Source of the DNA: an uncultured Pseudomonadota bacterium
Lineage (GTDB): Bacteria; Myxococcota_A; UBA796; SXON01
Reading direction: 5' to 3'
Length of the DNA stretch: 64,000 nt
NCBI GenBank assembly: GCA_903885375.1
Contig: CAISIK010000061.1
Location: 1,224-65,223, forward strand
Shown: one piece after another, positions 6,281 to 55,955 of the stretch
Position numbering within the stretch: the first letter of the stretch is position 1
Layout: the number at the start of each line of letters is the position of its first letter
Notes under the pieces: model-generated
The model's database searches: none
Told to the model about the DNA's origin: nothing
The model's input: only the letters and a program-made list of their open reading frames with translations
Translations under genes and position numbers: made by a program

Positions 6281-9200
6281 CTACCCAGGCAGGCCCGCGA
6301 GCTCCCACTCCGCCACGAGGCTCGCGATCTGCGCCTCGATCTCGTGCACATCGGCCTCGGTCCAGTCGGGGAGCCGAACGAGCTGGCCTGTGCGGGTGAA
6401 GAGAACGGCCGCGCGCGCGACGGCGCCGTGCCCGAGGGCCGTGAGCACCCTGCTGGCCGCGATGCTGTAGGTGAGGAGCTGCACCCGGTGGTGGGCGGCG
6501 GTTTCGTTGGGGTTCTCGCGCGGGTCCTCCGTTTTGTAGTCGACCACCATCCAGGCGTGATCGGCGGGGTCTACGCAGAGGCGGTCGAGCCGGCCATCGA
6601 TCCGGACGCCCGCGATCTCCATGCGGAGCGGCAGCTCGGCGTGGCCCCGCGCGGCGAGCACGGCCGCCACGTCGGGGCTCGCGCGCATCACCTCGAGCTG
6701 CGCCCGAAGCGGTGCCCACCCGTGGGTGATCGCCTCGTCATCGAGCCCCTCGACGATCGCCTCGGACCGCCAGCGCTGCCAGGCGATGGCCTCGTCGTGG
6801 AGGCACTCATCTTCGAGGAGGCTGTGGATGACGGTGCCGCGCACGGCGGCGAGTTCACGCGCCTTCCCCCGCCGCGCCAGCTCGGCGAGGCCCTCCGGAT
6901 CGTCGTCGGGGATGGCCGACGCTGCGGGTGTCCGGGGGACGGTCGACCGCGCCTCCAGGGCCGCGGCCAGCGCGCTCGGGGAGAGCGACCACCGACGCAC
7001 GCCCACGTGCGGCCGGAGGCTCGCGCGCACGGCCTCGAGGTCGACCCCTTCGCCGCTCCCGGGCTCCGCTGGCGGGGCGACCGGCTCCACCTCGACGAGC
7101 GCCTCCTGCCGCATGGCGGCACCGCAGTTGGCGCCATCGAGGAGGTCGAGCCAGGTGGTGTCGCCCCGGGAGGAGGGTTTTGCCTTCCGCAGCCCCACGA
7201 GCACGAGCGAGTCGATCGCGCGGGTGCAGGCCACGTAGAAGACACGCCGCTGCTCCGCGAGGTTCATCTCGCGGAGGGTGCGCCGGGCGCGCTCCAGCGC
7301 CCCGGGCCGGATGCGCACCCGCCGGGGGCCGTACCGGTCGATGGCGACGCAGTTCACATCCCAACCGCCATCGCGGGCCCGGGAAACGGCCACGTTCCCG
7401 CTCGGCGACCGATCGATGTCGACGCCCAGCTCGGGTACGATGACGACGGGGTATTCGAGCCCCTTGCTGCCGTGCACCGTGAGGATGCAGACCCGCGCGC
7501 CGGTGTCGGGCAGGCTGGCCTCGCCCTCGCGCACCTCCTCGGCCGCGGCATCAAACGCGGCCTGGGCGAACGCGGCCGGGTCGGTGCCGGCTTCATCGGC
7601 AGCGTCGGCCAGCTCGAGGAGACGGTGCACGTTGGCCTCGGCCTGACCGCCGGGGGAGGCCAACGTGAGCACCCACGCGGCGGCCGAGTCGGTGAGCAGC
7701 GCGTGGAGGGCCCCGGCGATGCTCCCCGACGCCACCCGCTCGCGGAGGCGCACCCAGCGCGCATGGGCTTCGAGGAGCTCGGGATCGTCGGCGAGGGACT
7801 CGGGGAGGGGCCCGCGACCGAACTCGGCGAGGGGCTGGGCGCGGGAGAGGCCCACGATCGAACGGTCGGGCACCCCGAAGAACGGCGAACGGAGCGCCCC
7901 GACCACGCTGAGCGCATCGCCCACCGCAAGCGCTCGGAGGCAGTGGGCGCAGTCGAGCACCTCCTGCTGCTGCCAGAACCCGGCACCGCCATCGACCACG
8001 ACGCTCACCCCTTCGGCCCGGAGGGCGGCCTCGAACAGGTGGAGCTTCGCCCGCCGCCGCAGCAGGATCGCAATGGGGGGGGAGGGGTAGCGCTGCGCGT
8101 CGGCGTACTCGGAGCCGGCCCACTCCCCGGTACCCGCGAGGATGCGCTCGCGGATGCTTCGCGCCACCCACGCCGCTTCGCGCTCTGCATCGGCTTCGGC
8201 GTTGCGCGGATCGAGTTTCGGGCCCGTGACCAGCAGCACGCTGCCGCCGGTGCGCGGCGAGGCGGCGCGCATGGCCTCGTAGCCGATCTGCCAGGCCGCG
8301 CGGGCCCCCCCACCGCCGCCGAGGATGGCCCCGAACGCGGCGTTCGCGAACTCGACCACGGCGGGGCGCGATCGGTGGTTGTCGGCGAAGAAGAGGCGGT
8401 GCGCGATGGTCTGGCGGGCGCGCTCGAACACCGCCACATCGCCGCCGCGGAAGCCGTAGATGCTCTGTTTGGGATCGCCCACCACGAAGAGGCGGTCGCG
8501 CGGCTCGCCGTGCCGGGTGATCGCCTCGACGAGGCTCCACTGGTCCACGTCGGTGTCCTGGAACTCATCGACCATGACGTAGCGGTGGCGCTCGCTCAGC
8601 GTGGCGGCGAGGCCGCCCTCCACGACGGCGAGGCGCGCTCGCGCGATCAGCTCGGCGAAGTCGAGCTCGCCGCGCTCATCGAACGATGCGGAGAGCCCCC
8701 GCTCGGCCGCCTGCACCAGCCTGGCCAGCGCGCGGCGGACGATCACGTGGGTGCGATCATGCCGGGTGGGGAGCTCGGCCGCGCGCTCCAGGTGCGTGGG
8801 GATGCTCTCGGCGTAGGCCTGCAGGCTGGCGGCGGCGGCGAGCGCCGCCTCGCGCTGCGGGCCGAGCTCGCCCTTGCTGCCGATCACGGTGTGGTGGTGG
8901 AAGCTCCGCACCCCGCCATCGCGCTTGAGGAGGGTGAGGAGGGCCCTCGACCAGAGCTCGCTCCGGGCGAGGGCATCCTGCCCGGCGAGCACGGCGGCGA
9001 TTTCGGCGGCAACCCCGCGCATGGCCGCGAGCGGAGCCTTGTCGATGTGGGGGGTGCAGGCGAGGAGCGGGGCCACCTCGCGCTGCCAGTCCAGCAGCCA
9101 GACGCCGAGGTCGGCATCGGCGATGCCGGCATCGGCGAGGATGGCTTCGTCGGTGATGGGCGCGGACGCGATACGATCGAGCGCGTGGCGCACCTCGCCT

Positions 9201-9853
9201 CGCCGGGCGAGGAGCGACTCCACCCCGGCGAGCACACTGCCTGCCCCGCCGAAGGACTCGAGCAGGAGGCGGATGTCCTCCCCGCCGCCACGGAGCGCCT
9301 GTTCCACGGCATCGGTGGCGGCCTCGCGCAACCGGCCATCGCAGTCGGCGGTGTCGAGCAGCGCCGCTCCGGGCGGGGTGGCGGACTCGGCGGGGAACTC
9401 CCGAAGCAGACGGGCGCAGAACCCGTGGAAGGTGTGGATGCTCGCGGCGGGGAAACGATCGCGCACCGCGGTCCAGGCGCGGCTGTGGAGGAGGAAGGCG
9501 GCCGCGCTCGGCAGCCCCGCCTCCGCGGCCGACCGGGCCGCATCGGCGCAGGCGCTGGCCATCTCGTTGACCATGCGGAGGCACCGCTCGCGCATCTCGG
9601 CGGCGGCCTTCTCGGTGAAGGTGAGCACGAGCACGTCGGTAGGTTCGGGCGGGACCCCGCGCTCGACGAGCAGGGCGTGCAGGAGCGCGACGTACCGGGC
9701 CGCGAGGGTGGAGGTCTTTCCTGCGCCCGCGCCGGCCACGACGGAGAGCTCCCGGTCGAACGCGAGGGCGCCGGCCTGCTCCTCGCTCAGGCGCCCGAAG
9801 CGGGGTGGCAGCTCGGCGCCAGGGCCGAGATGGACGAGCGGCGGCGTGCTCAT
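6281..9853 (-). CDS. addA: ATP-dependent helicase/nuclease subunit A (UvrD/Rep helicase + RecB-type nuclease)
   Basis: ATG 9853 chosen because it forms an ATGA overlap with the addB stop; the track ORF extends to 9982 through an Arg-rich stretch. Walker A GAGAGKTSTL, VDEFQDT and GDPKQSIYGFRG helicase motifs, C-terminal nuclease motif MVVDYKT. Confidence 0.85.
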   Translation of the reverse strand: MSTPPLVHLGPGAELPPRFGRLSEEQAGALAFDRELSVVAGAGAGKTSTLAARYVALLHALLVERGVPPEPTDVLVLTFTEKAAAEMRERCLRMVNEMASACADAARSAAEAGLPSAAAFLLHSRAWTAVRDRFPAASIHTFHGFCARLLREFPAESATPPGAALLDTADCDGRLREAATDAVEQALRGGGEDIRLLLESFGGAGSVLAGVESLLARRGEVRHALDRIASAPITDEAILADAGIADADLGVWLLDWQREVAPLLACTPHIDKAPLAAMRGVAAEIAAVLAGQDALARSELWSRALLTLLKRDGGVRSFHHHTVIGSKGELGPQREAALAAAASLQAYAESIPTHLERAAELPTRHDRTHVIVRRALARLVQAAERGLSASFDERGELDFAELIARARLAVVEGGLAATLSERHRYVMVDEFQDTDVDQWSLVEAITRHGEPRDRLFVVGDPKQSIYGFRGGDVAVFERARQTIAHRLFFADNHRSRPAVVEFANAAFGAILGGGGGARAAWQIGYEAMRAASPRTGGSVLLVTGPKLDPRNAEADAEREAAWVARSIRERILAGTGEWAGSEYADAQRYPSPPIAILLRRRAKLHLFEAALRAEGVSVVVDGGAGFWQQQEVLDCAHCLRALAVGDALSVVGALRSPFFGVPDRSIVGLSRAQPLAEFGRGPLPESLADDPELLEAHARWVRLRERVASGSIAGALHALLTDSAAAWVLTLASPGGQAEANVHRLLELADAADEAGTDPAAFAQAAFDAAAEEVREGEASLPDTGARVCILTVHGSKGLEYPVVIVPELGVDIDRSPSGNVAVSRARDGGWDVNCVAIDRYGPRRVRIRPGALERARRTLREMNLAEQRRVFYVACTRAIDSLVLVGLRKAKPSSRGDTTWLDLLDGANCGAAMRQEALVEVEPVAPPAEPGSGEGVDLEAVRASLRPHVGVRRWSLSPSALAAALEARSTVPRTPAASAIPDDDPEGLAELARRGKARELAAVRGTVIHSLLEDECLHDEAIAWQRWRSEAIVEGLDDEAITHGWAPLRAQLEVMRASPDVAAVLAARGHAELPLRMEIAGVRIDGRLDRLCVDPADHAWMVVDYKTEDPRENPNETAAHHRVQLLTYSIAASRVLTALGHGAVARAAVLFTRTGQLVRLPDWTEADVHEIEAQIASLVAEWELAGLPG

Positions 9854-12800
9854 TCGGCCTCCTCGGCTTCGGCGGGCGGCGTGCCGAACGGCACCTGTAC
9901 GGTGCCATCCGCGGCCTGACGCCGCTCGGGTGAACGGGCGTGGTCGACCCGGCAGATGGTGGCGTAGGCGCAGTAGCCACACCCGGCCAGGTCGGGATCG
10001 GCGGTGGTGGGGTGGAACCTGCCCGCGGCGAGCCGCGCCGCGCTCGCCTCGAGCCAGTCGTTGAGCCCGGTTCCCGCTTCACCATCGGTGGGGAGCCCGC
10101 CGCGGGAGGACAGCTCGGAGAGCAGGCTGGCCGGGCCGGCCCAGGCGCCGCGCCCCACATCATCGGGGGCGCGCACGCTCGCGAACCCGCCCGCCACCCG
10201 CGGGCGCTCCGCGGTGGCCACGGCGCGCGCGTAGAGCACGCCCTGTACCCGGAATCCGGCGGTGACCTGGCGGGTGGGGAGTCCCCCCGTCTTGTGGTCG
10301 AGCACGAGCTGCGCGTCGGGCCCGAGGTTGTCGACCCGATCGGCGCGACCGCGCAGCCGAAGCGGCCCCACCTCCATCTCGAGATCGAGCTCGACGGCGC
10401 GCACCTGCGAGGGCGGCGCCGCCCGCTCGGCATCGAGCCACGCCCGGAGGAGCCCGGCGGGCTTCTCATCGGCGAGGCCATCGCACCACTCCTCTTCGAG
10501 CAGGCGGCGCTGCACCTCGGGGAGCGCGGCCACATCGCGGTCGGCGGCCAGCTCGGCGGTGGCCGCCTGAGCGAGGAGCGCGAGGTGGCGGGCGGAGACG
10601 GTGGCATCGCCCGTTTGGAGGGTGGCGATGCCCTCGATCATCGCGGTCCGGAAGAACCGCTGGAGGACGCGGTGCAGGAGCCGGCCCCGCGCCGGGGCGG
10701 GGAGATCGAGGCTGAAGCTCTCCTCCGGGCGCAGGCCCAGCAGAGAGCCGTAGAGGTAGCGGGCCGGGCACGCGAGGTAGTTCTCGAAGGCGGTGACCGC
10801 GAGGGGCGCGCCATCGTGAGGCAGACCGGTGACGCCACTCCACGCCCCGAACTCGCGCCCCGCGCGCTCCCGCTCGCTGGCGGCGCGGCGTTCGAGGTCG
10901 CCCCGAAGGAGCGGCTGCCAGAGCGCGTGCGGCTGGCGCGCCGCGGCCCGCATCCAGGCGGCTTCGCCGAAGCGCCCGGCCGGCACCCGCCGGGCGGCCA
11001 CCCGGGCGCGCAGGGGGACGCCGCCCACCTGCACGGACAACAGCTCTTCGACGACGGGGGAGGGGAGGACGAGCTTGCCCGCGATCTGTCGGGGCCAGGA
11101 GAGGGTGAGGGTTCCCCCCGACTGCGCCACCGCGTTCCGGATGGCCGAGCCGAGGAGGTAGCGGGCCTGAGGCATGGCGACCGCGAGCCCGAGCGCATCG
11201 CGGCAGCGGCTGTCGAACAGCCAGTCGTTGGCCGCGCTGCCCGGGAAGTCATCCGCGAGGAGGCCGCCGATGAAAAGGTGCTTCGGGTGGATGCCGCGGA
11301 GCTCCAGCATGCCGACCACGGCGACGCCGCCCTGCAGCGCGGTGCGGGGCGGGGCCGACGCCCCTTCGAGCGCCGCGAGCCAGAGCGCAGTGAGCACGCG
11401 GCCCGAGGGCTCCTCCCGCGCAGTGCGCGCCTCGGCCACGAGGTTGGCGGCGGCGCGGAGCACGTGCCCCGCCCCCCGCCGCGCGGCCACATCGCGCTCG
11501 GGGGTGCCTTCGCGCAACCCCCAGCTGCGCGCGAGCGCGCCGAGCGCCGCCTCCCACGCCTCAGGACCGGGGGCGTCGAACACCGCGGAGAGCCGCTCGA
11601 GCTCGGCCTGCAGTGCGCTGACCCCGGCCGGGTCGTTGGCGGCAGCGAGCGGCACCCAGGCCTCCGGCCCGGCCCGCCGGACGCCCTTCTCCCGGAGCCG
11701 GCGCGCCATTGCCGCCACGGCCGGCGCGGGGAGGCTCGGCAGGTCGACCGGGAGGAGGGCGGCGAGGAGATCGGCCGGCTCATCGGGCCGGACCATGGCG
11801 CGCAGCGTCCCCATCACCGCGCGCGCGCCGGGCAGCGAGCCCACCGATTCGCCGCGGGAGATGGCGTGGGGGATGCCCACCTCGGCGAAGGTGCGGCGGA
11901 CGAGCCCCGCGTACCGGGGGAGGGCGGGGAACGCGACCTGGATGTCGGTTGCCCGCTCGCCGCCATCGAGGAGCGCCCGCACGGCGTGCGCGATGGCCTG
12001 CACTTCGCCGGCGGGATCGGGCCAGCTCTCGAGCGCGAGGCCCGGCGCTTCGGCCTCGCCGGCGGTGCCCCACACGTCGGTCGGGTCGGGCACTTCTTCC
12101 GGTGGGGGGCCGCTGCTGGCCGCGAACTCCGGCCCGGCCACGAAGACGTCGGCGCTCCCATCGGCGATGAGCGCATCGAGGCAGGCACGGCGGAGCCGCG
12201 AGGTGGCGCTGAGCGTGGGGGACAGGCGGCCCTCCCCGTCCTCGAGCCCGAAGTAGCGGGCCTCCTCCTCCACGCCATCCATTCCGCACTCGAACGAGAG
12301 CACCACGTTGGCGCCGGCCGCGGACCAGGCGCGGGAGAGGGCGAGGAGGACCTCCCGATCGAGGGGTGCGGGATCGATCACATCATCCACCACCACGAGA
12401 CTGGAGCGCCGGAGCCAGACCGTGAGGGCCTCGCCGGGTGATTCGAGCCCGCGAATGAGCTCGCGCATGGAAGTGTGGCGACACGCGGCGGAAGGGGAGG
12501 CATCGAGCGCCGCCGCCATGCGCCGGAACAGGGAGACGAGGCGTGCACCGCGCGCGCCGGGCAGGTTGGGCCGGCACGCAGAATCCCACGTGAAGAAGGC
12601 CGAGGCCACGCTCGGCGCCAAGCGCTCCGGGGGGCCCGACTCCTGCAACCAGGGCGGCGCCATCGTGCTGAAGTGGTGGATCAGCCAGAGACCGACGCCG
12701 GCCTCCGACCAGGTGGCCTTGCCCCCGACGTATCGGTTGGCGAGGTGGGTCTGCAGCTCGGCGAGCGTGGCCACCTCGGGCAGGAAGGAGGCGCCGTTGC

Positions 12801-12966
12801 GGTACTGGACGAACTCTTCCTGCACCGTGATTTTCTTGCGCGCCGAGTCGGTGACGAAGAGGAAGTTGGGGCGCCCGAGCACATCGATGCCGGCGAACTG
12901 CTCCGCGCGGAGCGCGCGGCGCCGGCGTTCGCGGGTGCGGCCGAGGAGGAGGGTGAGGGAGCCCAT
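9850..12966 (-). CDS. addB: Helicase/nuclease subunit B (PD-(D/E)XK nuclease with Fe-S cysteines)
   Basis: 1038 aa. Nuclease motif LVLDHKTG flanked by Cys in YLACPARY and the CGYCAYATIC cluster, as in Fe-S AddB. The N-terminal Walker A position is degenerate (LLLGRTRERRRR). Translationally coupled to addA. Confidence 0.8.
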   Translation of the reverse strand: MGSLTLLLGRTRERRRRALRAEQFAGIDVLGRPNFLFVTDSARKKITVQEEFVQYRNGASFLPEVATLAELQTHLANRYVGGKATWSEAGVGLWLIHHFSTMAPPWLQESGPPERLAPSVASAFFTWDSACRPNLPGARGARLVSLFRRMAAALDASPSAACRHTSMRELIRGLESPGEALTVWLRRSSLVVVDDVIDPAPLDREVLLALSRAWSAAGANVVLSFECGMDGVEEEARYFGLEDGEGRLSPTLSATSRLRRACLDALIADGSADVFVAGPEFAASSGPPPEEVPDPTDVWGTAGEAEAPGLALESWPDPAGEVQAIAHAVRALLDGGERATDIQVAFPALPRYAGLVRRTFAEVGIPHAISRGESVGSLPGARAVMGTLRAMVRPDEPADLLAALLPVDLPSLPAPAVAAMARRLREKGVRRAGPEAWVPLAAANDPAGVSALQAELERLSAVFDAPGPEAWEAALGALARSWGLREGTPERDVAARRGAGHVLRAAANLVAEARTAREEPSGRVLTALWLAALEGASAPPRTALQGGVAVVGMLELRGIHPKHLFIGGLLADDFPGSAANDWLFDSRCRDALGLAVAMPQARYLLGSAIRNAVAQSGGTLTLSWPRQIAGKLVLPSPVVEELLSVQVGGVPLRARVAARRVPAGRFGEAAWMRAAARQPHALWQPLLRGDLERRAASERERAGREFGAWSGVTGLPHDGAPLAVTAFENYLACPARYLYGSLLGLRPEESFSLDLPAPARGRLLHRVLQRFFRTAMIEGIATLQTGDATVSARHLALLAQAATAELAADRDVAALPEVQRRLLEEEWCDGLADEKPAGLLRAWLDAERAAPPSQVRAVELDLEMEVGPLRLRGRADRVDNLGPDAQLVLDHKTGGLPTRQVTAGFRVQGVLYARAVATAERPRVAGGFASVRAPDDVGRGAWAGPASLLSELSSRGGLPTDGEAGTGLNDWLEASAARLAAGRFHPTTADPDLAGCGYCAYATICRVDHARSPERRQAADGTVQVPFGTPPAEAEEAE

Positions 12967-12999
12967 GGTCGCATCGTGCTAACCACCCCCCGCCAGGAC

Positions 13000-13020
13000 A
13001 CCGACCAAATTCTGGTCGGT
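13000..13020 (-). terminator. Perfect 8-bp stem / 5-nt loop hairpin between the hydrolase stop and the addB start
   Basis: ACCGACCA-AATTC-TGGTCGGT lies inside the 64-nt intergenic gap 12967-13030. There is no U-tract, so it could be a terminator, an RNA-stability element or an operator. Confidence 0.3.
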
Positions 13021-13030
13021 CGCGCGATCG

Positions 13031-13897
13031 TCAGTCGGTGGTCATCGTCTGGCGCAGCGTGGCCAGCTTCTGGAGGATGGCGCGGTTCGCGGCGAGCGGC
13101 CCACCGGCCAGCCACGCCGGCCGCTCGGGCAGGGTGCCGCGGGGGTGGTCGTTGAGCTGCACCCACGCCGGCCGGCCGCGACGGGCCGCCTCGATCATCC
13201 GCCGCGCGTGGCGCAGCTCCTCCGGCTGGGCGTGGTCGGGGAAGGCCTGCAGGCGCGCATAGCCGCAGCCCAACGCGCCGACATGGGCCACGGCCTCCCG
13301 GGGCGGCCACCAGTCCTCGTCGTCGAGGGAATGGCCCGCTGCCGGCACCATGCGGGTGCCGCCCGCGGTGATGATCTCCCGGTCGCAGGGGCCCTCCCAG
13401 TCGAGGAGCCAGGGCACCGGCAGCTCGGGCCACCGAGCGAGCGCCCCGACGGCGGCGGCGAGGCCGAGCGAGAGGGAGAGCACGCCCACCCGGCCGGTGC
13501 AGTCGGGGCGGGCGGCGAGGGCGCGGATCGCCACGCGCACGTCGTCCTGGTGCTCCGGTCCGCCGAAGTCCTCCTCCCCCCAGCTGTCGCCCCGCCCCGC
13601 GGGGTCGTGCACGAGCACGGCGAAGCCGAGCCGGGCGAGCTCGGCGGCGCTGACGACCGCCGCGTTGCCGGTGAGCGCCGCCACGCCCTGGTGGATGGCC
13701 GGGGACACTACCAGGCCCGGCCAGCTGGTGCCCGACGCCGGGCGCACGAGCACGGCGGCGAGCCGGTATCCAGCGGTGGAGTGGAGCTCTGCCGGTTCGG
13801 TGCGCACTTCGGCAGCGCGGGACAGGTCACGTAGGCGGCGCAGGGCGGCGGTGCCGCGCCAGGCGAGGGCGGGAAGGGAGGGGGGAGCGAGCTTCAT
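13031..13897 (-). CDS. Alpha/beta-fold hydrolase
   Basis: ATG 13897 (MKLAPPSL) forms an ATGA overlap with the upstream stop. Nucleophile-elbow-like SLSLG, and the HDPAGRGDS context typical of dienelactone-hydrolase or prolyl-oligopeptidase-like esterases. The track ORF extension to 14293 is Arg-rich and overlaps the CotH gene. Confidence 0.65.
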   Translation of the reverse strand: MKLAPPSLPALAWRGTAALRRLRDLSRAAEVRTEPAELHSTAGYRLAAVLVRPASGTSWPGLVVSPAIHQGVAALTGNAAVVSAAELARLGFAVLVHDPAGRGDSWGEEDFGGPEHQDDVRVAIRALAARPDCTGRVGVLSLSLGLAAAVGALARWPELPVPWLLDWEGPCDREIITAGGTRMVPAAGHSLDDEDWWPPREAVAHVGALGCGYARLQAFPDHAQPEELRHARRMIEAARRGRPAWVQLNDHPRGTLPERPAWLAGGPLAANRAILQKLATLRQTMTTD

Positions 13898-15105
13898 TCG
13901 GGTTGGCTGGCGAGCCAGTCGTCGAGGTAGCTTCGCCGAAGGGGGACGAAGGCCTCGAGGCTGTCGAGGTAGGCGACGTAGGTTGCGTCGTCGTAGTAGC
14001 GCAGCGGGTCGTCCGCGCCGACCACTTCCGTCTGCGCGCGCATGTCTGCATACGCGGAGCGCATCTCGTCGCTCCCGTAGAGGGCGGTGAGCTCCCGGAG
14101 CGCATCGAGGTAGCCGGCCCAGCCCGCGTCGGTGGCGAGGAGCGCCGTCATGTGCGGGGTGCCGTCGGGGTAGTAGAGCAGGTCGGGCGGCGTGTCGTAG
14201 GCCACCCAGTCGAAGGTGCCGTCCTTGTCCCAGGGCAGCCAGAGGAAGCCCTGCTCCGGATGGTCGTAGAGGTAGTAGTTGTGTCCGCAGCACCAGTAGC
14301 CGTCACCATCGGGGAGGATGGCCTCGGCGGCCCACTCACGGAGCCACTCGTCGCTGTCGCCGAGGGCCGTGAAGCGGACCGGGTCGTAGCTCGACCAGAA
14401 GGCTTCGATCCGCGTGGTGTCGATGTCCTCGTCCTCGTGGTTGTCGAGCACGTAGCCGTACTTCCAGAGGTCTCCGTCTGCGTTGTCGTCGCCGAAGTTG
14501 CGTTCGAGGAACTCCCGATCGAGCTCCTCCATGTGGGCGTAGAGGCCCTGCGTCTCGCCGTTCACGCGGAGCTCGGCGTTGTTCGTGCAGGTTCCGGCGA
14601 GTCCGGCCCGGTGCAGGAACCAGTTGGCGAGACGGTTCTTCAGCACGGTGGGCTCGTAGTAGGGGGCGTCGAACGCCACCTTGCGTTCGCCCTCGACGCG
14701 GGCGTCGGGGTCGACCTCGTTGAAGGCCACCACGAATTGCATCTTCTCGCCCACCCAGCAGCAGCCGTTGTTCCCCTTCAGGCGGATCATCGTGTCGGGG
14801 ACGACCTCGCCATCGATGCGCAGCTCGGTGACGGGGACATAGTCCTTGGTGCCGTCGGCCGTGCGCCACTCGCGTTGGAGGTGCCGCCAGTCGCCCTCCT
14901 CGATGGTCAGCTCGTAGAGCGGCATCCGGTCCTGCGCGAACAGCGTGCTGCAGCCGAACTCGTCCTTCGGGTCGTCGGGCGGGTCCTCCTCGCCGCCGCC
15001 CCCGCCGCCGGGGGCCTCCTCGGAGCCGGAGGTGTCCGTGCCTCCTCCGGCGCCGTCGCCCAGCGCGATCCCGTCGGGAGCGCAGCCGAGGAGGGCGAGC
15101 AGCAT
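13894..15105 (-). CDS. CotH-family protein (atypical protein-kinase fold), lipoprotein
   Basis: ATG 15105 (MLLALLGC lipobox) forms a TGATG overlap with the upstream stop. CotH blocks LKNRLANWF, VNGETQGLYAHMEELDREFLERNF, GDLWKYGY, GHNYYLYDHPEQGFLWLPWDKDGTF. Confidence 0.8.
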   Translation of the reverse strand: MLLALLGCAPDGIALGDGAGGGTDTSGSEEAPGGGGGGEEDPPDDPKDEFGCSTLFAQDRMPLYELTIEEGDWRHLQREWRTADGTKDYVPVTELRIDGEVVPDTMIRLKGNNGCCWVGEKMQFVVAFNEVDPDARVEGERKVAFDAPYYEPTVLKNRLANWFLHRAGLAGTCTNNAELRVNGETQGLYAHMEELDREFLERNFGDDNADGDLWKYGYVLDNHEDEDIDTTRIEAFWSSYDPVRFTALGDSDEWLREWAAEAILPDGDGYWCCGHNYYLYDHPEQGFLWLPWDKDGTFDWVAYDTPPDLLYYPDGTPHMTALLATDAGWAGYLDALRELTALYGSDEMRSAYADMRAQTEVVGADDPLRYYDDATYVAYLDSLEAFVPLRRSYLDDWLASQPE

Positions 15106-16400
15106 CAAAGCGGCACGCTCGTGGCGTGAACCGCCATGCGGTAGAACGACCCCTGACCGCCCGTGCTCCCGTCGGAAGCCACGACCGTCACGGTGTAGCT
15201 GCCCGCCGCCAGCTTCGTCTCCGACTTCACCTCGGGGTCGGTTCCGCCCGACGCCGTGCCCGTGAGGTGGCCGCCCGGCCCGTCGACCTCCACGGTCGCT
15301 TCGAGCAGGCTGCCGTAGTTCAGCGCGCCGAAGGCGATGGCCACGTAGCTGTCCTCGGTGAGGGTGAAGGTGTACCAGTCCTGGTCGCCCGCCGGATCGA
15401 TCCGGCCCTCCACGAAGTCGGCCACCCAGGAGCCCGCGTCGGGGTACTGGTCCTCCAGGGTCAGCGTCATCGGCCCGTCGGCGGAGTCGTTGGGCTCGCG
15501 CTCGCGGCTGTTGCCGTAGCCCTCCTCGCTGTTGGCCACGAACACCCACATGCCGGCGGCGGGGCCGAGCGCGCCGGTCGTGTCGGACACGCCGAGGATG
15601 TAGGTGCTGTCGGGCGGCGAGATGTACTGGCGGAAGTCGGTCTCGGCCACGGTATCGGCCTGCAGGACGGGCGTGCCCTCGCTGTCGTAGAGCGTGAGCG
15701 CCGGCGTGTAGGGGCTGGACTCGATGTGGTGGGCGCGGGCGAAGGTGAGCGCGCCGTCGCTGTGGGCGAGCTCGAGGAGGACGTAGTCCGTGTCGCCGGC
15801 CTCGTCCGCTTGGACGGGGAGCGCGTACCAGCTGTTGTCGTTGTCCATCGCCGCGCCGTTGGCGAGGCGGAGGAGGCTGTCGGGCTCCTCCGGCGGGCCG
15901 GACGGACCGAGGATCTGCACGGTGTAGTCGGTGTCCTCGACGTCACGCTCCGCGCCCTCGAAGGTGCCCTTGTCCACGATACGGACGAAGTAACTGCCCG
16001 CTTCGGGGAAGAAGCCGAAGCAGACGGTGTCGTAGGTACCCACATCGCCCACGGGGTGGTCATCCTCCCAGGCGATGCGCGTCATCGCGGAGTCGTAGAC
16101 CTCCACGACCGTGTCGAGGCTGTCCTCCGAGGCGTTCTCGTCGGCGTTGACGACCTGCACCCGGAAGTGCTGCCCCGCGGACACACCGGTCACCTTGAAC
16201 CAGTCCGCGTCGTCGGCATCGAGCGTGCCGGACTCCTCCGTTTCCCACGCGAGCTCCCGCGCGGTTTCCGGCGTGTCTGCATCCTCCGGGGCGCTGGTGT
16301 CGGTGGAGGGAGTGCCGGTGTCATCGTCGGCGTAATGCGGGCCCTCCTCGGCGCCGGTGCACGCGGCGAGGAGGAGCGGGAGGAACGCGGTGCGGTGCAT
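15105..16400 (-). CDS. Lipoprotein with three pre-peptidase C-terminal (PPC)-like modules
   Basis: 431 aa; lipobox LLLAAC; acidic D/T/G-rich linker. Three repeats carry PPC-like signatures (DADWFKV..GSYFVRI; DTDYVLL..STYILGV; EPNDS..DQDWYTF..GSYTVTV). Confidence 0.7.
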   Translation of the reverse strand: MHRTAFLPLLLAACTGAEEGPHYADDDTGTPSTDTSAPEDADTPETARELAWETEESGTLDADDADWFKVTGVSAGQHFRVQVVNADENASEDSLDTVVEVYDSAMTRIAWEDDHPVGDVGTYDTVCFGFFPEAGSYFVRIVDKGTFEGAERDVEDTDYTVQILGPSGPPEEPDSLLRLANGAAMDNDNSWYALPVQADEAGDTDYVLLELAHSDGALTFARAHHIESSPYTPALTLYDSEGTPVLQADTVAETDFRQYISPPDSTYILGVSDTTGALGPAAGMWVFVANSEEGYGNSREREPNDSADGPMTLTLEDQYPDAGSWVADFVEGRIDPAGDQDWYTFTLTEDSYVAIAFGALNYGSLLEATVEVDGPGGHLTGTASGGTDPEVKSETKLAAGSYTVTVVASDGSTGGQGSFYRMAVHATSVPL

Positions 16401-16472
16401 CTCGGCAGTATAGCGCCCGAAGTAGCGGAGGGGGCTTGTCGCCGGATTCCGCCGTGCCTATCCCCGCCGCCC

Positions 16473-17459
16473 ATGCGCGCCCTGACCGGAATCAAGCCCA
16501 CCGCCACCCCCCACCTGGGCAACCTGCTTGGGGCCATCGCGCCCGCCCTGGCCTTGCAGGAGAAGGCGGATGCCTTCTACTTCATCGCCGACTACCACGC
16601 GCTCACCACCCTTCAGGATGCCGAGCGCATGCGGCAGTACACCCGCGAAGTCGCAGCAACCTGGCTCGCCCTGGGGCTCGATCCAGCGCGCACCAGCCTG
16701 TTCGTGCAGTCCGACATCCCCGAGGTCACGGAGCTCACCTGGCTCCTCGCCTGCGTGCTCGGCAGCGGCGCCCTGGAGCGCGCGCACGCCTACAAGGCCG
16801 CCCAGCAGGATGGCCGCGAGGTGAACGTCGGCACGTTCCTGTACCCGGTGCTGATGGCCGCCGACATCCTGATCTACGACAGCAACGCGGTGCCGGTGGG
16901 CAAGGACCAGAAGCAGCACGTGGAGATGGCCCGCGACATGGCGCAGGCCTTCAACAGCCGCTTCGGCGAGGTCTTCGTGATTCCCGAGCCGATCATCGCG
17001 GAGGCGGTGGCCACCATCCCGGGGCTCGATGGCCGGAAGATGTCGAAGTCCTACGGCAACACCATCGAGGTGTGGCTCCCGGCCAAGCAGCTGCGCAAGA
17101 AGATCATGAGCATCACGACCGACAGCCGCGGGGTGGATGAGGTCAAGGACCCCGACACCTGCAACGTCTTCGCGCTCTACAAGCTCTTCGCCACCCCCGA
17201 GCAGATCGCCGCCCTCGCCGAGCGCTACCGCGCCCCCGGCCTCGGCTACGGGCACGCCAAGGAGGAGCTCTTCCAGGTGGTGGAGGCGCGCCTCGCCCCC
17301 GCCCGCGTCCGGTACGAGCACCTCCTGGCCCACCCCGAGGAGATCGATGCGGTGCTCGATGCCGGCACGCGCCGCGCGCGCACCATCGCCGCTGGGGTGC
17401 TCGCCCGGGCTCGCCAGGCCGTGGGCTTTGCCGGCGCGCCACGTCGGGCGGTCATGTGA
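16473..17459 (+). CDS. trpS: Tryptophan--tRNA ligase
   Basis: 328 aa from ATG 16473. HIGH-type motif TPHLGN and KMSKS (GRKMSKSYGN); full-length class-I TrpRS layout. The 449 aa upstream in the track ORF are antisense to the PPC lipoprotein gene. Confidence 0.95.
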   Translation: MRALTGIKPTATPHLGNLLGAIAPALALQEKADAFYFIADYHALTTLQDAERMRQYTREVAATWLALGLDPARTSLFVQSDIPEVTELTWLLACVLGSGALERAHAYKAAQQDGREVNVGTFLYPVLMAADILIYDSNAVPVGKDQKQHVEMARDMAQAFNSRFGEVFVIPEPIIAEAVATIPGLDGRKMSKSYGNTIEVWLPAKQLRKKIMSITTDSRGVDEVKDPDTCNVFALYKLFATPEQIAALAERYRAPGLGYGHAKEELFQVVEARLAPARVRYEHLLAHPEEIDAVLDAGTRRARTIAAGVLARARQAVGFAGAPRRAVM

Positions 17460-17715: not shown

Positions 17716-18762
17716 ATGTCGCTCCGCTTGCGCTCATCCTCCTCCGACGGCGCCCGTCGCCGCTCCGAGCGTCTCACCGCAGAAGAAGAGAAGATGATTG
17801 CCCGTGAAATTCGGAAGGCCGAGCAGGTGGCCCGCGAGTGCGTGGCCGGCATCGATGCCGCCGAGAACATCCTCCGTCGTCGTCCGGACCGTGCGGAGCG
17901 CACCCGCGCCGGCGCGGTCGATCGCCTCGAGGAGGCGGTTCGCGCCGTGGCCAAGGCCGCCCGCAAGGAAGACGATCTGAAGACCTACGCTCGCAAGGCG
18001 CAGGGCGCCTGGCAGCAGGCCGAGGAGCTCCGCTGGCGCCTCGCGATGAGCGGTCGCCGCATCGCCCACGGCGAGGCCCGCAAGCTGGCCGGCCCGTTCA
18101 TGGATGAGGAGGATCTCGTCCAGGAGGGCTACATCGGCCTCCTCCGCGCGGCCAAGCGCTTCGACCCGGACCGGGGCATCCGCTTCTCCACCTACGCGCG
18201 TTGGTGGGTTCGCGCGCAGATGACGCGGGCGATCGACCACACCGGCCGGCCCGTGCGCCTGCCCGGCTGCGCGGTGGAGCAGACCCGCAACCTCCGCAAG
18301 GCCATGAAGCGCTTCGAGGCCGCTGGCATCGAGTACAACGTGGCCGACCTCGCCGAAGAGGTGGGCATCGACAAGGAGCGCGCCGAGCTGCTCCTCTCGC
18401 AGGGCAACACCATCTCGCTCGAGCAGCCGGTGGATGACGGCCCCCGTCCGCGCCCCCTGGAGCGATTCCTCTCGGATGAGGGCGCCGTTTCGCCCGACGA
18501 CGAGAGCATCCAGATCCAGGAGCTTTCGCGCATGACGAAGGCCTTCCACAACGTGCTCAGCGAGCGCCAGCGCTTCGTGCTGACCCGCCGCTACGGCCTC
18601 GAGGATGGTGAGTTCCGCACCCTCTCCGAGGTGGGCAAGGAGATGGGCCTCTCGCGCGAGCGCGTGCGCCAGATCGAGCGCGAGGCCCTCATCCGCCTGC
18701 GCGACCAGTCCGGCATCCGCGACCTTCGTGGCATGCCGCTCCCGGAGCCGGGCGAGGCCTGA
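17716..18762 (+). CDS. RNA polymerase sigma factor, sigma-70 family (regions 1.2, 2, 3, 4)
   Basis: 348 aa; AGGTGA RBS. Region 2 DLVQEGYIGLLRAAKRFDPDRGIRFSTYARWWVRAQMTRAI; region 4 TLSEVGKEMGLSRERVRQIEREALIRLR. About 65 aa are inserted between region 1.2 (LTAEEEKMIAREIRKAE) and region 2.1. Confidence 0.9.
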   Translation: MSLRLRSSSSDGARRRSERLTAEEEKMIAREIRKAEQVARECVAGIDAAENILRRRPDRAERTRAGAVDRLEEAVRAVAKAARKEDDLKTYARKAQGAWQQAEELRWRLAMSGRRIAHGEARKLAGPFMDEEDLVQEGYIGLLRAAKRFDPDRGIRFSTYARWWVRAQMTRAIDHTGRPVRLPGCAVEQTRNLRKAMKRFEAAGIEYNVADLAEEVGIDKERAELLLSQGNTISLEQPVDDGPRPRPLERFLSDEGAVSPDDESIQIQELSRMTKAFHNVLSERQRFVLTRRYGLEDGEFRTLSEVGKEMGLSRERVRQIEREALIRLRDQSGIRDLRGMPLPEPGEA

Positions 18763-20301: not shown

Positions 20302-21327
20302 ATGCACCCCCTCGACGCCCTGGCCCGCATCGATGCGGCCACCCTCGGCACGGCGCTCCCGCCCGCCCACGCGCGCGCCGCCTGGGCGCTGGCGATCGAG
20401 GGCGCGCGCTCCGTGCGCACCGACCTGGTACTCCCGGGGCCAGCGCCGCGCGCGGTGGCGCTGGTGGCGAGCGCCAACGTCTTCACGGCGCCGATCGAGT
20501 GGGTGTGGGCGCTCTCGGCGCGCGGAGTGCCGGTGGTGCTGAAGTCCGCGCGCGGGCTCGCCGCCGTGGGCGAGGCGCTGGCCGCGGCCTTCCCCAGCGT
20601 GGAAGCCCGCGACTGGCGCGGCGGTGATCTCGACGCCGAAGCCGCTGCGCTCGCGGAGTGCGATGTGGCCATGGTTTTCGGCGCGGCGGAGACGATCGGT
20701 CGGGTGCGCGCCCGCTCGCCCATCCCGGTGCTCGGCTTCGGCCCCCGCTTCGGGGTGGCGCTCGTGGACGGAGTGGGCGCTGACCAGGCGGCCGGCCTCG
20801 CGCGGGACCACGCGCTCTACGATGGGCGGGGGTGCATGTCGCCGGCGGCGGTGTTCTCGGCGCAGGCGGTGGAGCTGGATCGTCTCGCGGCCGCGCTGGT
20901 CGAGGCCGACGAACGCCTGCCGGCGGGGGAGTTCACGCCCTCGGAGGCGGCGGGGCGGCGGTCCCTGGCCATGCTCGCGCGCATCGAAGGCCGTGTGCTG
21001 GAGGTGGGGAGCTGGGTGGTGGCGGTCCTGCCCGCCGCGCACGTGCGGCCGCGGGGGCTGCCGCGGGTGATCACGGTGCACGAGGGCGTGGCCCCTGCGG
21101 CCGCCGTGGCGCCGTGGCGCGAGGAGCTGGGCACCGTGGCGCTGCCGGGCGCCACCGAGTCGGACCTGCGCGCAGAGCCGGCGCTCGCGGAGGCGCTCGG
21201 CCTTGAGGGCCTGCCGCCGGCGCGGGTGTGTGCGGTCGGGGAAATGCAGCGCCCGCCCGGGGGGCGCCGCCTGCACGACGGCGTGAGCGTGCTGCCCGCG
21301 CTGTGGCATGCGGCGGCGAACCGCTAA
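20302..21327 (+). CDS. LuxC-like acyl-CoA (acyl-protein) reductase
   Basis: 341 aa; aldehyde-dehydrogenase-like fold with candidate catalytic Cys in ALYDGRGCMSPAAVF. The assignment is strengthened by the LuxE-like gene next door. Confidence 0.65.
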   Translation: MHPLDALARIDAATLGTALPPAHARAAWALAIEGARSVRTDLVLPGPAPRAVALVASANVFTAPIEWVWALSARGVPVVLKSARGLAAVGEALAAAFPSVEARDWRGGDLDAEAAALAECDVAMVFGAAETIGRVRARSPIPVLGFGPRFGVALVDGVGADQAAGLARDHALYDGRGCMSPAAVFSAQAVELDRLAAALVEADERLPAGEFTPSEAAGRRSLAMLARIEGRVLEVGSWVVAVLPAAHVRPRGLPRVITVHEGVAPAAAVAPWREELGTVALPGATESDLRAEPALAEALGLEGLPPARVCAVGEMQRPPGGRRLHDGVSVLPALWHAAANR

Positions 21328-21932
21328 CGGGGCGGCGGCCAGCCGAGGAGCGCCGCGGCCACGAGGGCGAAGCGCTCGCGGTCGGCCTCGGCCACGTCGG
21401 CGCCCACCAGCAGGGTGCCGGAGCCGAGCAGGTCCACGGCGGCGAGCAGGCGCTCGCCCTCGCGGATGGCCACGCCGGCCAGGACGGGGCCGGCGAGACC
21501 GCCCGGCTGGCGCACCGGCTCTACCGCGAGGGTGCGCCCCGCGAGGGCGAGCTCGCCGCGCACTTCCACGCTCCGGCCGAGCCGCAGCACCAGCCCCTCC
21601 GCGGTGCACGTGAGCGCATCCTCGAGCACCGACATCCCGCCGGGCCCGGGCGGGCGCGCGCGGCCGGCCTCGCAGCGCACCACCCGCGGCGTGCCCGTGG
21701 GGCCCACGAGCTCGAACCCGAAGCCCACGACCTCCGGCACGAGGCCGGTACCGGTGGCGTCCGGTCCGGCGCTCCACCCGCCCGTGGGCCGCTCCACCCG
21801 GTAGGGGCCGATGTGGTAGCCGGGCGCGAGATCGCCGCGGCCCGTGGCCGCGAAGACCACGGCCGGCTCGGGGAAGCCGGCGGGAGGCGCCATGCGCGCG
21901 GCGCACCCCGCGAGGAGGAGGATCGCCAGCAT
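21324..21932 (-). CDS. Hypothetical lipoprotein
   Basis: ATG 21932 (MLAILLLAGC lipobox), 2 nt after the LuxE-like stop; an alternative GTG at 21938 would overlap it. No known motif. Its 3' end overlaps the convergent luxC-like stop. Confidence 0.5.
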   Translation of the reverse strand: MLAILLLAGCAARMAPPAGFPEPAVVFAATGRGDLAPGYHIGPYRVERPTGGWSAGPDATGTGLVPEVVGFGFELVGPTGTPRVVRCEAGRARPPGPGGMSVLEDALTCTAEGLVLRLGRSVEVRGELALAGRTLAVEPVRQPGGLAGPVLAGVAIREGERLLAAVDLLGSGTLLVGADVAEADRERFALVAAALLGWPPPR

Positions 21933-39839: not shown

Positions 39840-40008
39840 CGTTCTTCCCTCAGCCTCGCCGGCTTATCGCCTCGGGCCCCTCCCGTCGAACGTCTCCGGC
39901 CGGGTAGGGCGGATATGCCTCCGGGCCAGCGGCCGTCGATGTTTGCAACCGCCGTGGACATCGGGTGACGGACATCTTGTCACGACCTCGACCACCTCTC
40001 TTGCCAAC

Positions 40009-40040
40009 TTGACAAGGTGGCGGAACGATCGCAAATTATC
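40009..40040 (+). promoter_or_regulatory. Candidate promoter elements upstream of gspC
   Basis: TTGACA at 40009-40014 with weak -10 candidates (CAAATT / AATTAT). It overlaps a sigma-54-like TGGCGG-N5-TCGCA (40018-40033) with correct GG/GC spacing. The region is AT-richer. Confidence 0.2.
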
Positions 40041-40093
40041 AAGCTGATTCGAGCACTCGGCAGCCGGCATGGTTCTTGCTATTCTTGACGCCG

Positions 40094-43857: not shown

Positions 43858-43860
43858 GTC

Positions 43861-46802: not shown

Positions 46803-46812
46803 AGGAGAACCC

Positions 46813-47229: not shown

Positions 47230-47230
47230 C

Positions 47231-50521: not shown

Positions 50522-50523
50522 GC

Positions 50524-55898: not shown

Positions 55899-55955
55899 GG
55901 CTCGCCGGGAGGGATTCGGTTCATCGCGGGTGAATCGGGCGGTATAGTGGCGCCC

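What the first reader, a model, noticed from the sequence alone, without database searches (positions are those of the whole stretch)
13031..16400. Translationally coupled envelope operon: PPC-repeat lipoprotein, CotH-family lipoprotein and alpha/beta hydrolase
Seen: three minus-strand genes joined by TGATG (15103-15107) and ATGA (13894-13897) overlaps. The first two have lipoboxes. The middle one carries the conserved CotH blocks. Established: CotH proteins adopt an atypical protein-kinase fold. Bacillus CotH phosphorylates spore-coat proteins, and other family members are surface or adhesion proteins. Inference: an exported, lipid-anchored CotH kinase in a Gram-negative-type envelope implies extracytoplasmic phosphorylation or a non-kinase role. 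The strictly coupled PPC-module protein is a plausible substrate or scaffold, and the hydrolase a plausible partner.
Basis: partly seen in the sequence, partly recalled or inferred. Interest (0 to 1): 0.55.

Follow-up and report, generated by a model that had tools for sequence, protein, structure and literature searches.

The report
Lipoprotein CotH kinase three-gene operon
A freshwater myxobacterial lineage carries a tightly packed three-gene cluster (a surface binding-type lipoprotein, a CotH-family kinase-fold lipoprotein with an intact active site, and a cytoplasmic-looking hydrolase); the genes are real but of known kinds, and the only unusual feature is the kinase's extremely short export signal.

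Summary
Three minus-strand genes (15105-16400, 13894-15105, 13031-13897) are joined by the reported TGATG and ATGA overlaps.

- **Gene 2** is a true CotH-family protein: Pfam E=5.5e-24, and its model matches B. cereus CotH at TM 0.66-0.75. The catalytic Asp, Asn and metal-binding Asp are invariant in 120 homologues.
- **Gene 1** is a canonical lipoprotein with three PPC/collagen-binding-like beta-sandwich modules.
- **Gene 3** is a small serine alpha/beta-hydrolase. It has no signal peptide in any of 11 orthologues, so "envelope operon" fits only two of the three genes.

The trio is conserved in all 11 genomes of one shallow clade, always with a stop/start overlap between genes 1 and 2. Outside that clade each gene occurs alone, so a kinase-substrate relationship has no comparative support.

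The CotH "lipobox start" is correct but odd. Only 7 residues, with no basic residue, precede the invariant Cys. In-frame stops in relatives show this shortness is real. 46 of 111 CotH homologues and several other secreted-type proteins in the window share it, whereas more distant homologues have normal lipoprotein signals.

Verdict: a new member of known kinds, of modest interest. The minimal signal peptides are the one lead worth following.

The parts
15105..16400 (-). g1: 431-aa acidic lipoprotein (mature pI about 4.1) with a disordered Asp/Thr/Ser-rich tether (residues about 15-45) and three beta-sandwich PPC/collagen-binding-domain-like modules (about 50-165, 175-290, 300-428)
   Evidence: ORF. 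Weak PPC and borderline NF038127 matches. 21-sequence alignment with invariant Cys14. AF2 model pLDDT 81, all-beta. Foldseek hits to tandem CUB domains and the ColG s3a-s3b collagen-binding domains, 5IKU. pI.
16359..16400 (-). g1 lipoprotein signal peptide MHRTAFLPLLLAAC (lipobox LAAC, Cys14)
   Evidence: The Cys is invariant in 21 orthologues.
15103..15108 (-). g1 stop / g2 start overlap (TTG-ATG with TGA: TTGATG)
   Evidence: NTGA overlap in 11 of 11 clade genomes.
13894..15105 (-). g2: 403-aa CotH-family kinase-fold protein (start ATG 15105, or TTG 15108), with a disordered acidic/Gly-rich tether at residues 9-45
   Evidence: PF08757 E=5.5e-24. PDB 5JD9 profile match E=3.5e-21. AF2 pLDDT 80.6. 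Foldseek 5JDA/5JD9 TM 0.66-0.75.
15082..15105 (-). g2 minimal lipobox N-terminus MLLALLGC (Cys8), with no basic residue
   Evidence: Cys invariant in the 21-sequence alignment and present in 111 of 120 homologues. In-frame stops 39-48 nt upstream with no start codon between in L006 and L009. Stops 4-6 codons upstream in paralogues.
14221..14304 (-). g2 catalytic segment: D268 (catalytic Asp), N276, D293 (metal-binding Asp), D295
   Evidence: Alignment to B. cereus CotH. All four residues invariant in 120 of 120 homologues.
13894..13897 (-). g2 stop / g3 start overlap ATGA
   Evidence: The junction varies among orthologues but is always 16 nt or less.
13031..13897 (-). g3: 288-aa alpha/beta-hydrolase (CocE/NonD-type N-terminal domain only) with no signal peptide. 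Nucleophile elbow S141-L-S143-L-G (S143 codon at 13469-13471). Conserved DWEGPCDRE and PDHAQP motifs are candidate Asp and His.
   Evidence: 11-orthologue alignment. Alignment of the elbow to GISYG of lipase 8YZO.
16401..16472 (.). 72-nt divergent intergenic region between g1 and trpS (16473-17459, + strand); presumed promoter region of the cluster
   Evidence: Gene calls in L082. No sigma-70 consensus found. trpS confirmed by Pfam.

Best explanation
This is a lineage-specific three-gene transcription unit in a high-GC freshwater Myxococcota genome.

- **g1** is a conventional lipoprotein. It has a flexible acidic tether followed by three PPC/collagen-binding-like beta-sandwich modules, which is the architecture of a binding or adhesion protein.
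- **g2** is translated by re-initiation at a start codon overlapping the g1 stop. It is a CotH-family atypical kinase with a complete catalytic set, so it is most likely enzymatically active. Its N-terminus is a minimal lipobox: Met, then 6 hydrophobic or small residues, then Cys. In this lineage that segment replaces the ordinary 15-25-residue lipoprotein signal found in more distant homologues. The most likely fate is therefore export and lipid anchoring at the envelope, where it would phosphorylate an unidentified envelope or surface substrate.
- **g3** is a soluble, apparently cytoplasmic serine hydrolase. It is merely co-transcribed.

**Shown here:** gene structures, family membership, fold, conservation of the catalytic residues, junction conservation, and the limits of the synteny.

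**Inferred only:** export and lipidation of g2, kinase activity, co-transcription, and any functional relationship among the three products.
For: **Gene structure and overlaps.**

**CotH identity and fold.**

**Catalytic residues.** D268, N276, D293 and D295, plus K121 and E193, are invariant in 120 homologues. The B. subtilis D228Q and D251A mutants are inactive (PMC7821199).

**Export of g2.**
- The Cys is present in 111 of 120 homologues.
- 64 of the 111 have 12 or more residues before the Cys, mostly canonical K/R-containing lipoprotein signals; 47 have 11 or fewer.
- A disordered acidic tether follows the Cys.
- C52 and C173 are conserved in 116-120 of 120 homologues. C173 aligns to a Lys in cytoplasmic Bacillus CotH.
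- The same short N-terminus occurs on other secreted-type proteins in the window: an SGL beta-propeller, an Exo_endo_phos protein and a Kelch propeller.

**g1 architecture.**

**g3.** It lacks a signal peptide and has a serine elbow.

**Synteny.** The block trpS/g1/g2/g3 is kept in all 10 related genomes, while the downstream flank differs.
Against: - A pre-Cys segment of 5-10 residues with no charge is far shorter than any lipoprotein signal peptide I know of (own knowledge). Export is therefore not assured.
- No source of ATP is known outside the cytoplasm (own knowledge).
- No promoter or terminator was detected, so the operon status rests on spacing alone.
- The ATP-binding Lys could not be mapped onto the solved structure by sequence.
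- Linkage is confined to one clade in which neighbouring housekeeping genes are also syntenic. It may therefore reflect shared ancestry and not selection.
Confidence: 0.62

Rival explanations
1. First reader's model. The three products form one functional envelope module: lipid-anchored CotH phosphorylates, or is scaffolded by, the co-translated PPC lipoprotein, with the hydrolase as a partner.
For: - The stop/start overlap between g1 and g2 is kept in 11 of 11 genomes, although g1 has diverged to 45-68% identity.
- g1 has a Ser/Thr/Asp-rich tether.
- The 403-aa orthologues lack the C-terminal MopE and C-type-lectin modules that many longer CotH homologues carry. A binding module supplied in trans is therefore conceivable.
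Against: - The g1 homologue P0143 (33% identity) stands alone at the syntenic position next to the sigma-factor gene.
- g3 homologues have unrelated neighbours.
- About 70 other CotH loci have no g1 or g3 homologue.
- The second CotH copy in the same genomes follows a T2SS-E ATPase gene instead.
- No CotH-PPC fusion is seen among 120 homologues.
- g3 has no export signal.
Confidence: 0.15
2. The g2 N-terminus is too short to work as a signal peptide. CotH would then stay in the cytoplasm, where ATP is available, or be peripherally attached to the inner face of the membrane. The conserved Cys would serve some other purpose.
For: - Only 5-10 residues, with no K/R, precede the Cys in 46 of 111 homologues.
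- In-frame stops exclude a longer leader.
- The only characterised bacterial CotH acts in a cytoplasmic compartment (PMC7821199).
Against: - Related CotH proteins carry full lipoprotein signals ending at the aligned Cys.
- The hydrophobic run plus [AG]-C is exactly a lipobox.
- A long disordered acidic tether follows the Cys, as in lipoproteins.
- There are six further Cys, two of them family-invariant and absent in Bacillus CotH.
- The same leader occurs on beta-propeller and nuclease/phosphatase-type proteins that are typically secreted.
Confidence: 0.2
3. g1 and g2 are made as one fusion protein by programmed frameshifting near the g1 stop. The hydrophobic stretch would then be internal.
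For: - The g2 reading frame is open for at least 39 nt upstream of its start in all 11 loci.
- That frame reads Arg/His-rich sequence resembling an n-region.
Against: - There is no X XXY YYZ slippery heptamer in the last 40 nt of g1.
- The conserved g1 C-terminus FYR.AVH.TSV is also kept in P0143, which has no downstream CotH, so its conservation is explained by g1 itself.
- Paralogues have the same short N-terminus with no overlapping upstream gene, and with stops in frame 4-6 codons upstream.
Confidence: 0.02

Closest known systems
Bacillus CotH spore-coat protein kinase (PF08757; PDB 5JD9/5JDA)
   Same: - Same Pfam family and same atypical kinase fold (TM 0.66-0.75).
- The catalytic Asp, Asn and metal-binding Asp are conserved.
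   Different: - Only 18-19% identical.
- Carries a lipobox N-terminus, an acidic tether and six extra Cys.
- Comes from a non-sporulating-type Gram-negative lineage, with no CotB/CotG-like Ser/Lys/Arg-rich substrates nearby.
- Location is presumably extracytoplasmic, not the mother-cell cytoplasm.
Uncharacterised "CotH kinase family protein" lipoproteins of Myxococcota MAGs (NCBI annotation)
   Same: - Direct homologues at 30-81% identity, all with the conserved N-terminal Cys.
- The window protein itself is already in public collections at 100% identity (P0001).
   Different: - Many relatives are longer, with C-terminal MopE (PF11617) or C-type lectin (PF00059) modules and normal signal peptides.
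- This clade is 397-409 aa, has the minimal leader, and is coupled to the PPC gene.
Clostridial collagenase ColG tandem collagen-binding domains / PPC pre-peptidase C-terminal domains (PF04151; PDB 5IKU)
   Same: - g1 modules are beta-sandwiches.
- Module 3 has the PPC-type EPND...DxDWY...Y signature.
- Foldseek matches ColG s3a-s3b.
   Different: - No peptidase domain is attached.
- Pfam scores are below the gathering threshold.
- There are three modules on a lipid anchor.
- Module 1 is closer to the NF038127 (DVUA0089) family.
CocE/NonD (Peptidase_S15) alpha/beta-hydrolases
   Same: g3 matches the N-terminal catalytic half and aligns its serine elbow.
   Different: - Only 288 aa, with no C-terminal beta-sandwich domain.
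- The TIGR00976 score of 39.7 is below its cut-off of 66.3.
- The elbow is S/A-x-S-x-G, not G-x-S-x-G.

Membership tests
CotH kinase family (PF08757) | Match to the family HMM above the curated threshold | tested here: met
   85.7 bits against a cut-off of 23.8, E=5.5e-24, covering residues 120-394.
CotH kinase family (PF08757) | Atypical protein-kinase-like fold as in B. cereus CotH | tested here: met
   The AF2 model (pLDDT 80.6) has top Foldseek hits 5JDA/5JD9 at E about 3e-16 and TM 0.66-0.75. The next hits are HipA and PI3K kinases.
CotH kinase family (PF08757) | Catalytic Asp and metal-binding Asp (B. subtilis D228 and D251) | tested here: met
   D268 and D293 align to B. cereus chain positions D224 and D247, which have the same 23-residue spacing as Bs D228/D251. 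N276 aligns to N229. All are invariant in 120 of 120 homologues. The mutant phenotypes come from PMC7821199. The Bs-to-Bc numbering correspondence is my inference from the spacing.
CotH kinase family (PF08757) | ATP-dependent protein phosphorylation | not testable with these tools
   Needs a biochemical assay.
Bacterial lipoproteins (Lgt/LspA substrates) | Lipobox [LVI][ASTVI][GAS]C at the end of the N-terminal hydrophobic segment | tested here: met
   g1 has LAAC (Cys14) and g2 has LLGC (Cys8). The Cys is invariant in orthologues.
Bacterial lipoproteins (Lgt/LspA substrates) | Signal peptide with a basic n-region and a membrane-spanning h-region (typically about 15-25 residues in total) | tested here: not met
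   Met for g1 only marginally: 13 residues, with His and Arg. Not met for g2: 7 residues and no K/R. In-frame stops in orthologues and paralogues exclude a longer leader.
Bacterial lipoproteins (Lgt/LspA substrates) | Demonstrated lipid modification and signal peptidase II cleavage | not testable with these tools
   Requires globomycin treatment, palmitate labelling or mass spectrometry.
PPC pre-peptidase C-terminal domain (PF04151) | HMM match above the gathering threshold | tested here: not met
   22.4 bits against a cut-off of 25.9 for the whole protein. Modules 1 and 3 score 14.7 and 19.3 bits, and module 2 gives no hit. 10 of the 23 closest homologues listed (P0121-P0143) do carry a precomputed PF04151 hit.
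PPC pre-peptidase C-terminal domain (PF04151) | Beta-sandwich fold resembling collagen-binding / PPC domains | tested here: inconclusive
   The model is all-beta with three modules. Foldseek hits include ColG s3a-s3b (5IKU, E=3e-9), but also CUB-domain proteins. Whole-chain TM scores are low (0.2-0.4) because the match spans several domains.
DVUA0089 family (NCBIfam NF038127) | HMM score at or above the curated cut-off | tested here: inconclusive
   29.0 bits against a cut-off of 29, covering residues 55-152 only.
CocE/NonD family hydrolase (TIGR00976 / PF02129) | Full-length match including the C-terminal domain | tested here: not met
   TIGR00976 scores 39.7 against a cut-off of 66.3. Only profile positions 6-105 of 550 are matched, and the protein is 288 aa. 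The N-terminal Pfam domain PF02129 is above threshold at 42.8 against 23.
Serine alpha/beta-hydrolases | Nucleophile elbow with a conserved Ser, plus Asp and His | tested here: met
   [S/A]-L-S143-L-G is invariant in 11 orthologues and aligns to GISYG of lipase 8YZO. Invariant DWEGPCDRE and PDHAQP motifs supply candidate Asp and His; these assignments are inferred.
Translationally coupled operon | Overlapping stop and start codons between consecutive same-strand genes | tested here: met
   TGATG/TTGA at 15103-15108 and ATGA at 13894-13897. The g1/g2 overlap is conserved in 11 of 11 genomes.
Translationally coupled operon | Single transcript and dependence of downstream translation on upstream translation | not testable with these tools
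   No promoter or terminator consensus was found. RNA data are needed.

The most novel reading that the evidence does not exclude
The ultra-short, uncharged N-termini (Met, then 4-9 hydrophobic residues, then [AG]-Cys, for example MLLLLAC) may be genuine, fully functional lipoprotein export signals. This freshwater Myxococcota lineage would then use them widely in place of classical 15-25-residue signal peptides.

They are seen on this CotH, on 46 of 111 of its homologues, and on several unrelated secreted-type proteins in the window.

If this is right, it implies either a relaxed or altered targeting, Lgt and LspA recognition system, or a much smaller minimal signal than textbooks allow. It would also mean that standard predictors systematically miss part of the lipoproteome in these genomes.
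Probability: 0.4. Interest if true: 0.6.

Novelty: new member of a known kind. Interest (0 to 1): 0.33.

Why it matters
**The cluster itself adds little.** CotH-family proteins with lipoprotein signals are already abundant, and already annotated, in Myxococcota assemblies. The PPC-like protein and the hydrolase belong to known folds, and their linkage to CotH is confined to one shallow clade.

**Two points have wider value.**
1. The catalytic residues of these presumably exported CotH proteins are strictly conserved. This sharpens the open question of what an extracytoplasmic bacterial kinase phosphorylates, and with what phosphate donor. The conserved pairing with a single co-translated lipoprotein gives one concrete, cheap candidate substrate to test.
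2. The minimal, charge-free lipobox leaders are provably short and recurrent. If they do direct export, they bear on the minimal requirements for Sec targeting and lipoprotein processing, and on the completeness of lipoprotein prediction in metagenome-derived genomes.

Tried and rejected
1. **A longer g2 leader from an upstream start.** Rejected. There is no ATG, GTG or TTG upstream in frame until 15549, deep inside g1. In L006 and L009 an in-frame stop lies 39-48 nt upstream with no start codon between. Paralogues have stops 4-6 codons upstream.

2. **A g1-g2 fusion by frameshifting.** Rejected. No slippery site is present, and the conservation of the g1 C-terminus is explained by g1 itself.

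3. **Covariation of the CC pairs at 115/116 and 272/273 as evidence for disulfides.** I first noted this from the 21-sequence alignment. With 120 sequences the 272/273 pair occurs without Cys at 115/116, so I withdrew it. Only the invariance of C52 and C173 is retained as weak support.

4. **Mapping the ATP-binding Lys onto B. cereus CotH.** Sequence alignments start only at residue 136 of g2, so K121 is only a candidate.

5. **Nguyen et al. 2016 (PNAS), the CotH structure paper.** Not held in the library. The residue roles were taken from PMC7821199 instead.

6. **Promoter/terminator scan and Rfam search over the region.** Nothing found. The hairpin between g3 and the downstream gene is not significant, with z = -1.2.

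7. **A recurrent neighbour of more distant CotH genes.** Pfam scans of 26 flanking ORFs gave no shared family apart from a T2SS-E ATPase in four closely related loci.

8. **Literature searches.** Searches for CotH in Myxococcota, for secreted bacterial CotH, and for unusually short lipoprotein signals returned nothing relevant.

Full report
**1. What is in the sequence**

The window is high-GC (66-78% in 2-kb windows). Long spurious ORFs cover both strands, and third-position GC content picks out the real genes. Three consecutive coding ORFs lie on the minus strand.

| Gene | Coordinates | Length |
|---|---|---|
| g1 | 16400->15105 | 431 aa |
| g2 | 15105->13894 | 403 aa |
| g3 | 13897->13031 | 288 aa |

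Reading the DNA confirms both overlaps.
- The g1 stop is TGA at 15107-15105.
- The g2 ATG is at 15105-15103, which gives TGATG. A TTG one codon upstream (15108-15106) would give a TTGA overlap.
- The g2 stop is TGA at 13896-13894 and the g3 ATG is at 13897-13895, which gives ATGA.

The surroundings are as follows.
- trpS is divergent, 72 nt upstream of g1, at 16473-17459 on the + strand.
- A sigma-70-family gene follows at 17716-18762.
- An AddB-like PD-(D/E)XK nuclease gene starts 64 nt downstream of g3.

No Rfam family, sigma-70-type promoter or intrinsic terminator was detected in the region.

**2. The three proteins**

*g2.*
- It matches Pfam CotH at 85.7 bits (cut-off 23.8).
- A profile of 21 orthologues and paralogues matches B. 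cereus CotH (5JD9) at E=3.5e-21 over residues 136-399.
- The AlphaFold model has pLDDT 80.6. Residues 1-43 are disordered.
- The model superposes on 5JDA/5JD9 with TM 0.66-0.75.
- In the alignments, D268, N276, D293 and D295 pair with chain positions D224, N229, D247 and D249 of B. cereus CotH.
- The 23-residue spacing between D224 and D247 equals that between B. subtilis D228 and D251. Changing those residues (D228Q, D251A) inactivates the kinase (PMC7821199). The correspondence between the two numbering schemes is my inference.
- All four residues, plus K121, Q123, D146 and E193, are invariant in 120 homologues.
- The active site therefore looks intact.

*g1.*
- It begins MHRTAFLPLLLAAC, a normal if short lipoprotein signal.
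- An Asp/Thr/Ser-rich disordered tether follows, then three beta-sandwich modules.
- PPC matches are below threshold: 22.4 bits for the whole protein against 25.9. Module 3 carries the typical EPND...DxDWY signature.
- Module 1 matches NCBIfam NF038127 exactly at its cut-off.
- Foldseek finds tandem CUB domains and the ColG collagen-binding tandem.

*g3.*
- It matches only the N-terminal catalytic half of CocE/NonD/Peptidase_S15.
- It has an invariant [S/A]-L-S-L-G elbow, which aligns with GISYG of a solved lipase.
- It has no hydrophobic N-terminal segment in any of 11 orthologues.

g1 and g2 are very acidic, with mature pI about 4.1. g3 has pI 7.1.

**3. Is the CotH start right, and is it a lipoprotein?**

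The public gene call for the identical protein uses the same start (P0001). In the 21-sequence alignment the Cys at position 8 is invariant. Every sequence but one has only 5-10 residues before it, and none of those contains Lys or Arg.

Ten related genomes were recovered by a scan of species-representative genomes. In all of them the g1 stop is TGA overlapped by a g2 start codon as NTGA. Including the window, the counts are GTGA x8, ATGA x1 and TTGA x2. In two of them (L006, L009) the g2 frame is closed by a stop 39-48 nt upstream with no start codon between.

Paralogous and more distant copies show the same feature without any overlapping gene.
- L010-L012 read TGA, then 15 nt, then ATG CTG CTG CTC GTC GCC TGC.
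- L015, L017 and L057 have in-frame stops 4-6 codons before the Met.

The short N-terminus is therefore real. A frameshift fusion to g1 is not supported. No slippery site is present. The conserved g1 C-terminus is also kept in a homologue that has no downstream CotH.

Across 111 homologues with an aligned Cys:
- 47 have 11 or fewer residues before it, and 46 of those have no basic residue;
- the remaining 64 have 12 or more, mostly ordinary K/R-containing lipoprotein signals.

The short form thus sits exactly where relatives have a classical signal, which argues that it is the functional equivalent.

The window holds further examples on proteins of secreted type:
- MIRWALLLAGC at 52725;
- VAPMCSLLLLLLAAC at about 55944;
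- VMRGLLLVLVGC at 56909, on an SGL-type beta-propeller;
- MAVRDTLVVVVLLGC at 59855, on an Exo_endo_phos protein;
- MSWLWFLLGC at 24288, on a Kelch propeller.

Other loci of the lineage also hold non-CotH cases.

Export of g2 is therefore the more likely reading. It remains an inference, because such leaders fall outside the accepted form of lipoprotein signal peptides.

**4. Is the gene linkage meaningful?**

All ten ortholog loci keep the order g1, g2, g3. The longer ones also keep M19-peptidase, SnoaL-like, sigma and trpS upstream.

| Gene | Amino-acid identity to the window |
|---|---|
| sigma factor | 96-99% |
| trpS | 76-85% |
| g3 | 62-82% |
| g2 | 63-69% |
| g1 | 45-68% |

Downstream of g3, the AddB-like gene is found only in the window and in L001. 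The trio is thus part of a larger syntenic block in closely related genomes. That limits what its conservation says about function.

Outside the clade the genes separate.
- The only distant g1 homologue (P0143, 33% identity) lies next to the same sigma-factor gene. It is followed by a convergent polyprenyl synthase gene, not by CotH or the hydrolase.
- Three g3 homologues at 60-65% identity sit among ABC transporters, an alpha-amylase gene or other genes.
- The roughly 70 CotH loci below 48% identity have no g1 or g3 homologue within 6 kb.
- At least five of the genomes that have the trio also have a second CotH at 40-47% identity. In four related loci this copy directly follows a T2SS-E/MshEN ATPase gene.
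- No CotH-PPC fusion occurs among 120 homologues. Their extra domains are MopE-type and C-type lectin.

"No conserved gene linkage" is met beyond the shallow clade. "Catalytic residues absent" is not met.

**5. Interpretation**

The best-supported reading is a lineage-specific operon. It encodes two co-translated envelope lipoproteins, a three-module binding-type protein and an active CotH-type kinase, followed by a cytoplasmic serine hydrolase.

The g1/g2 overlap is maintained despite substantial divergence. The paired lipoprotein is therefore a reasonable first candidate for a partner or substrate. Nothing comparative supports this beyond co-inheritance, and I put it at about 0.15.

The alternative that CotH stays in the cytoplasm, because its leader is too short, cannot be excluded. 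I put it at about 0.2.

**6. Novelty and score**

The proteins are members of known families and are already present in public collections, where relatives are annotated "CotH kinase family protein". The arrangement is an ordinary tight operon. I rate the finding as a new member of a known kind, with interest 0.33.

The most novel reading still open is that the minimal, uncharged lipobox leaders are a real export signal used widely in this lineage. I give this a probability of about 0.4 and an interest of 0.6 if true.

Noticed in passing
window 52725-54047(+), 55944-56912(+), 56909-58414(+), 59855-60715(+), 24288-25715(+), 21324-21932(-); also L014, L016, L049, L057: Several unrelated ORFs of secreted type (an SGL beta-propeller, an Exo_endo_phos protein, a Kelch propeller and proteins of unknown family) begin with very short lipobox leaders, for example MIRWALLLAGC, MCSLLLLLLAAC, VMRGLLLVLVGC, MSWLWFLLGC. 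For some, an in-frame stop directly upstream shows that the leader cannot be longer. This looks like a lineage-wide trait and not a peculiarity of CotH.
   Followed up: partly
L010:3526-5373, L011:2516-4363, L012:2487-4334, L015:3819-5981: In sister genomes a second CotH copy (42-47% identical to g2) lies 13-15 nt downstream of a 615-aa T2SS-E/MshEN-type secretion ATPase gene. This association is conserved in four related loci.
   Followed up: partly
window 17716-18762 (+): The sigma-70-family gene next to trpS is 96-99% identical in protein sequence across genomes whose trpS is only 76-85% identical and whose g1 is 45-68% identical. That is unusually strong conservation for its neighbourhood.
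   Followed up: no
window 6281-12966 (-): Two very large, slightly overlapping genes lie downstream of g3. They appear to be an AddA/AddB-like helicase-nuclease pair; the AddB-like one carries a PD-(D/E)XK domain. This flank is shared only with the closest relative, L001.
   Followed up: no
window about 40000-56900 (+): A long same-strand run of genes appears to be a type II secretion / pilus-like cluster, to judge from ORF translations resembling a GspE-type ATPase, GspF and pseudopilins with the typical N-terminal hydrophobic helix. Two of the short-leader lipoprotein ORFs sit at its end. These domains were not checked with Pfam.
   Followed up: no
window 12990-13030 (-): An 8-bp GC-rich hairpin (ACCGACCA...TGGTCGGT) lies just after the g3 stop and has no T-run. 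Its folding energy is not significant against shuffles, with z = -1.2.
   Followed up: yes
g2 homologues P0023-P0120: Many longer CotH homologues carry C-terminal Cu-binding_MopE (PF11617) and C-type lectin (PF00059) modules. The 403-aa clade studied here has none.
   Followed up: no
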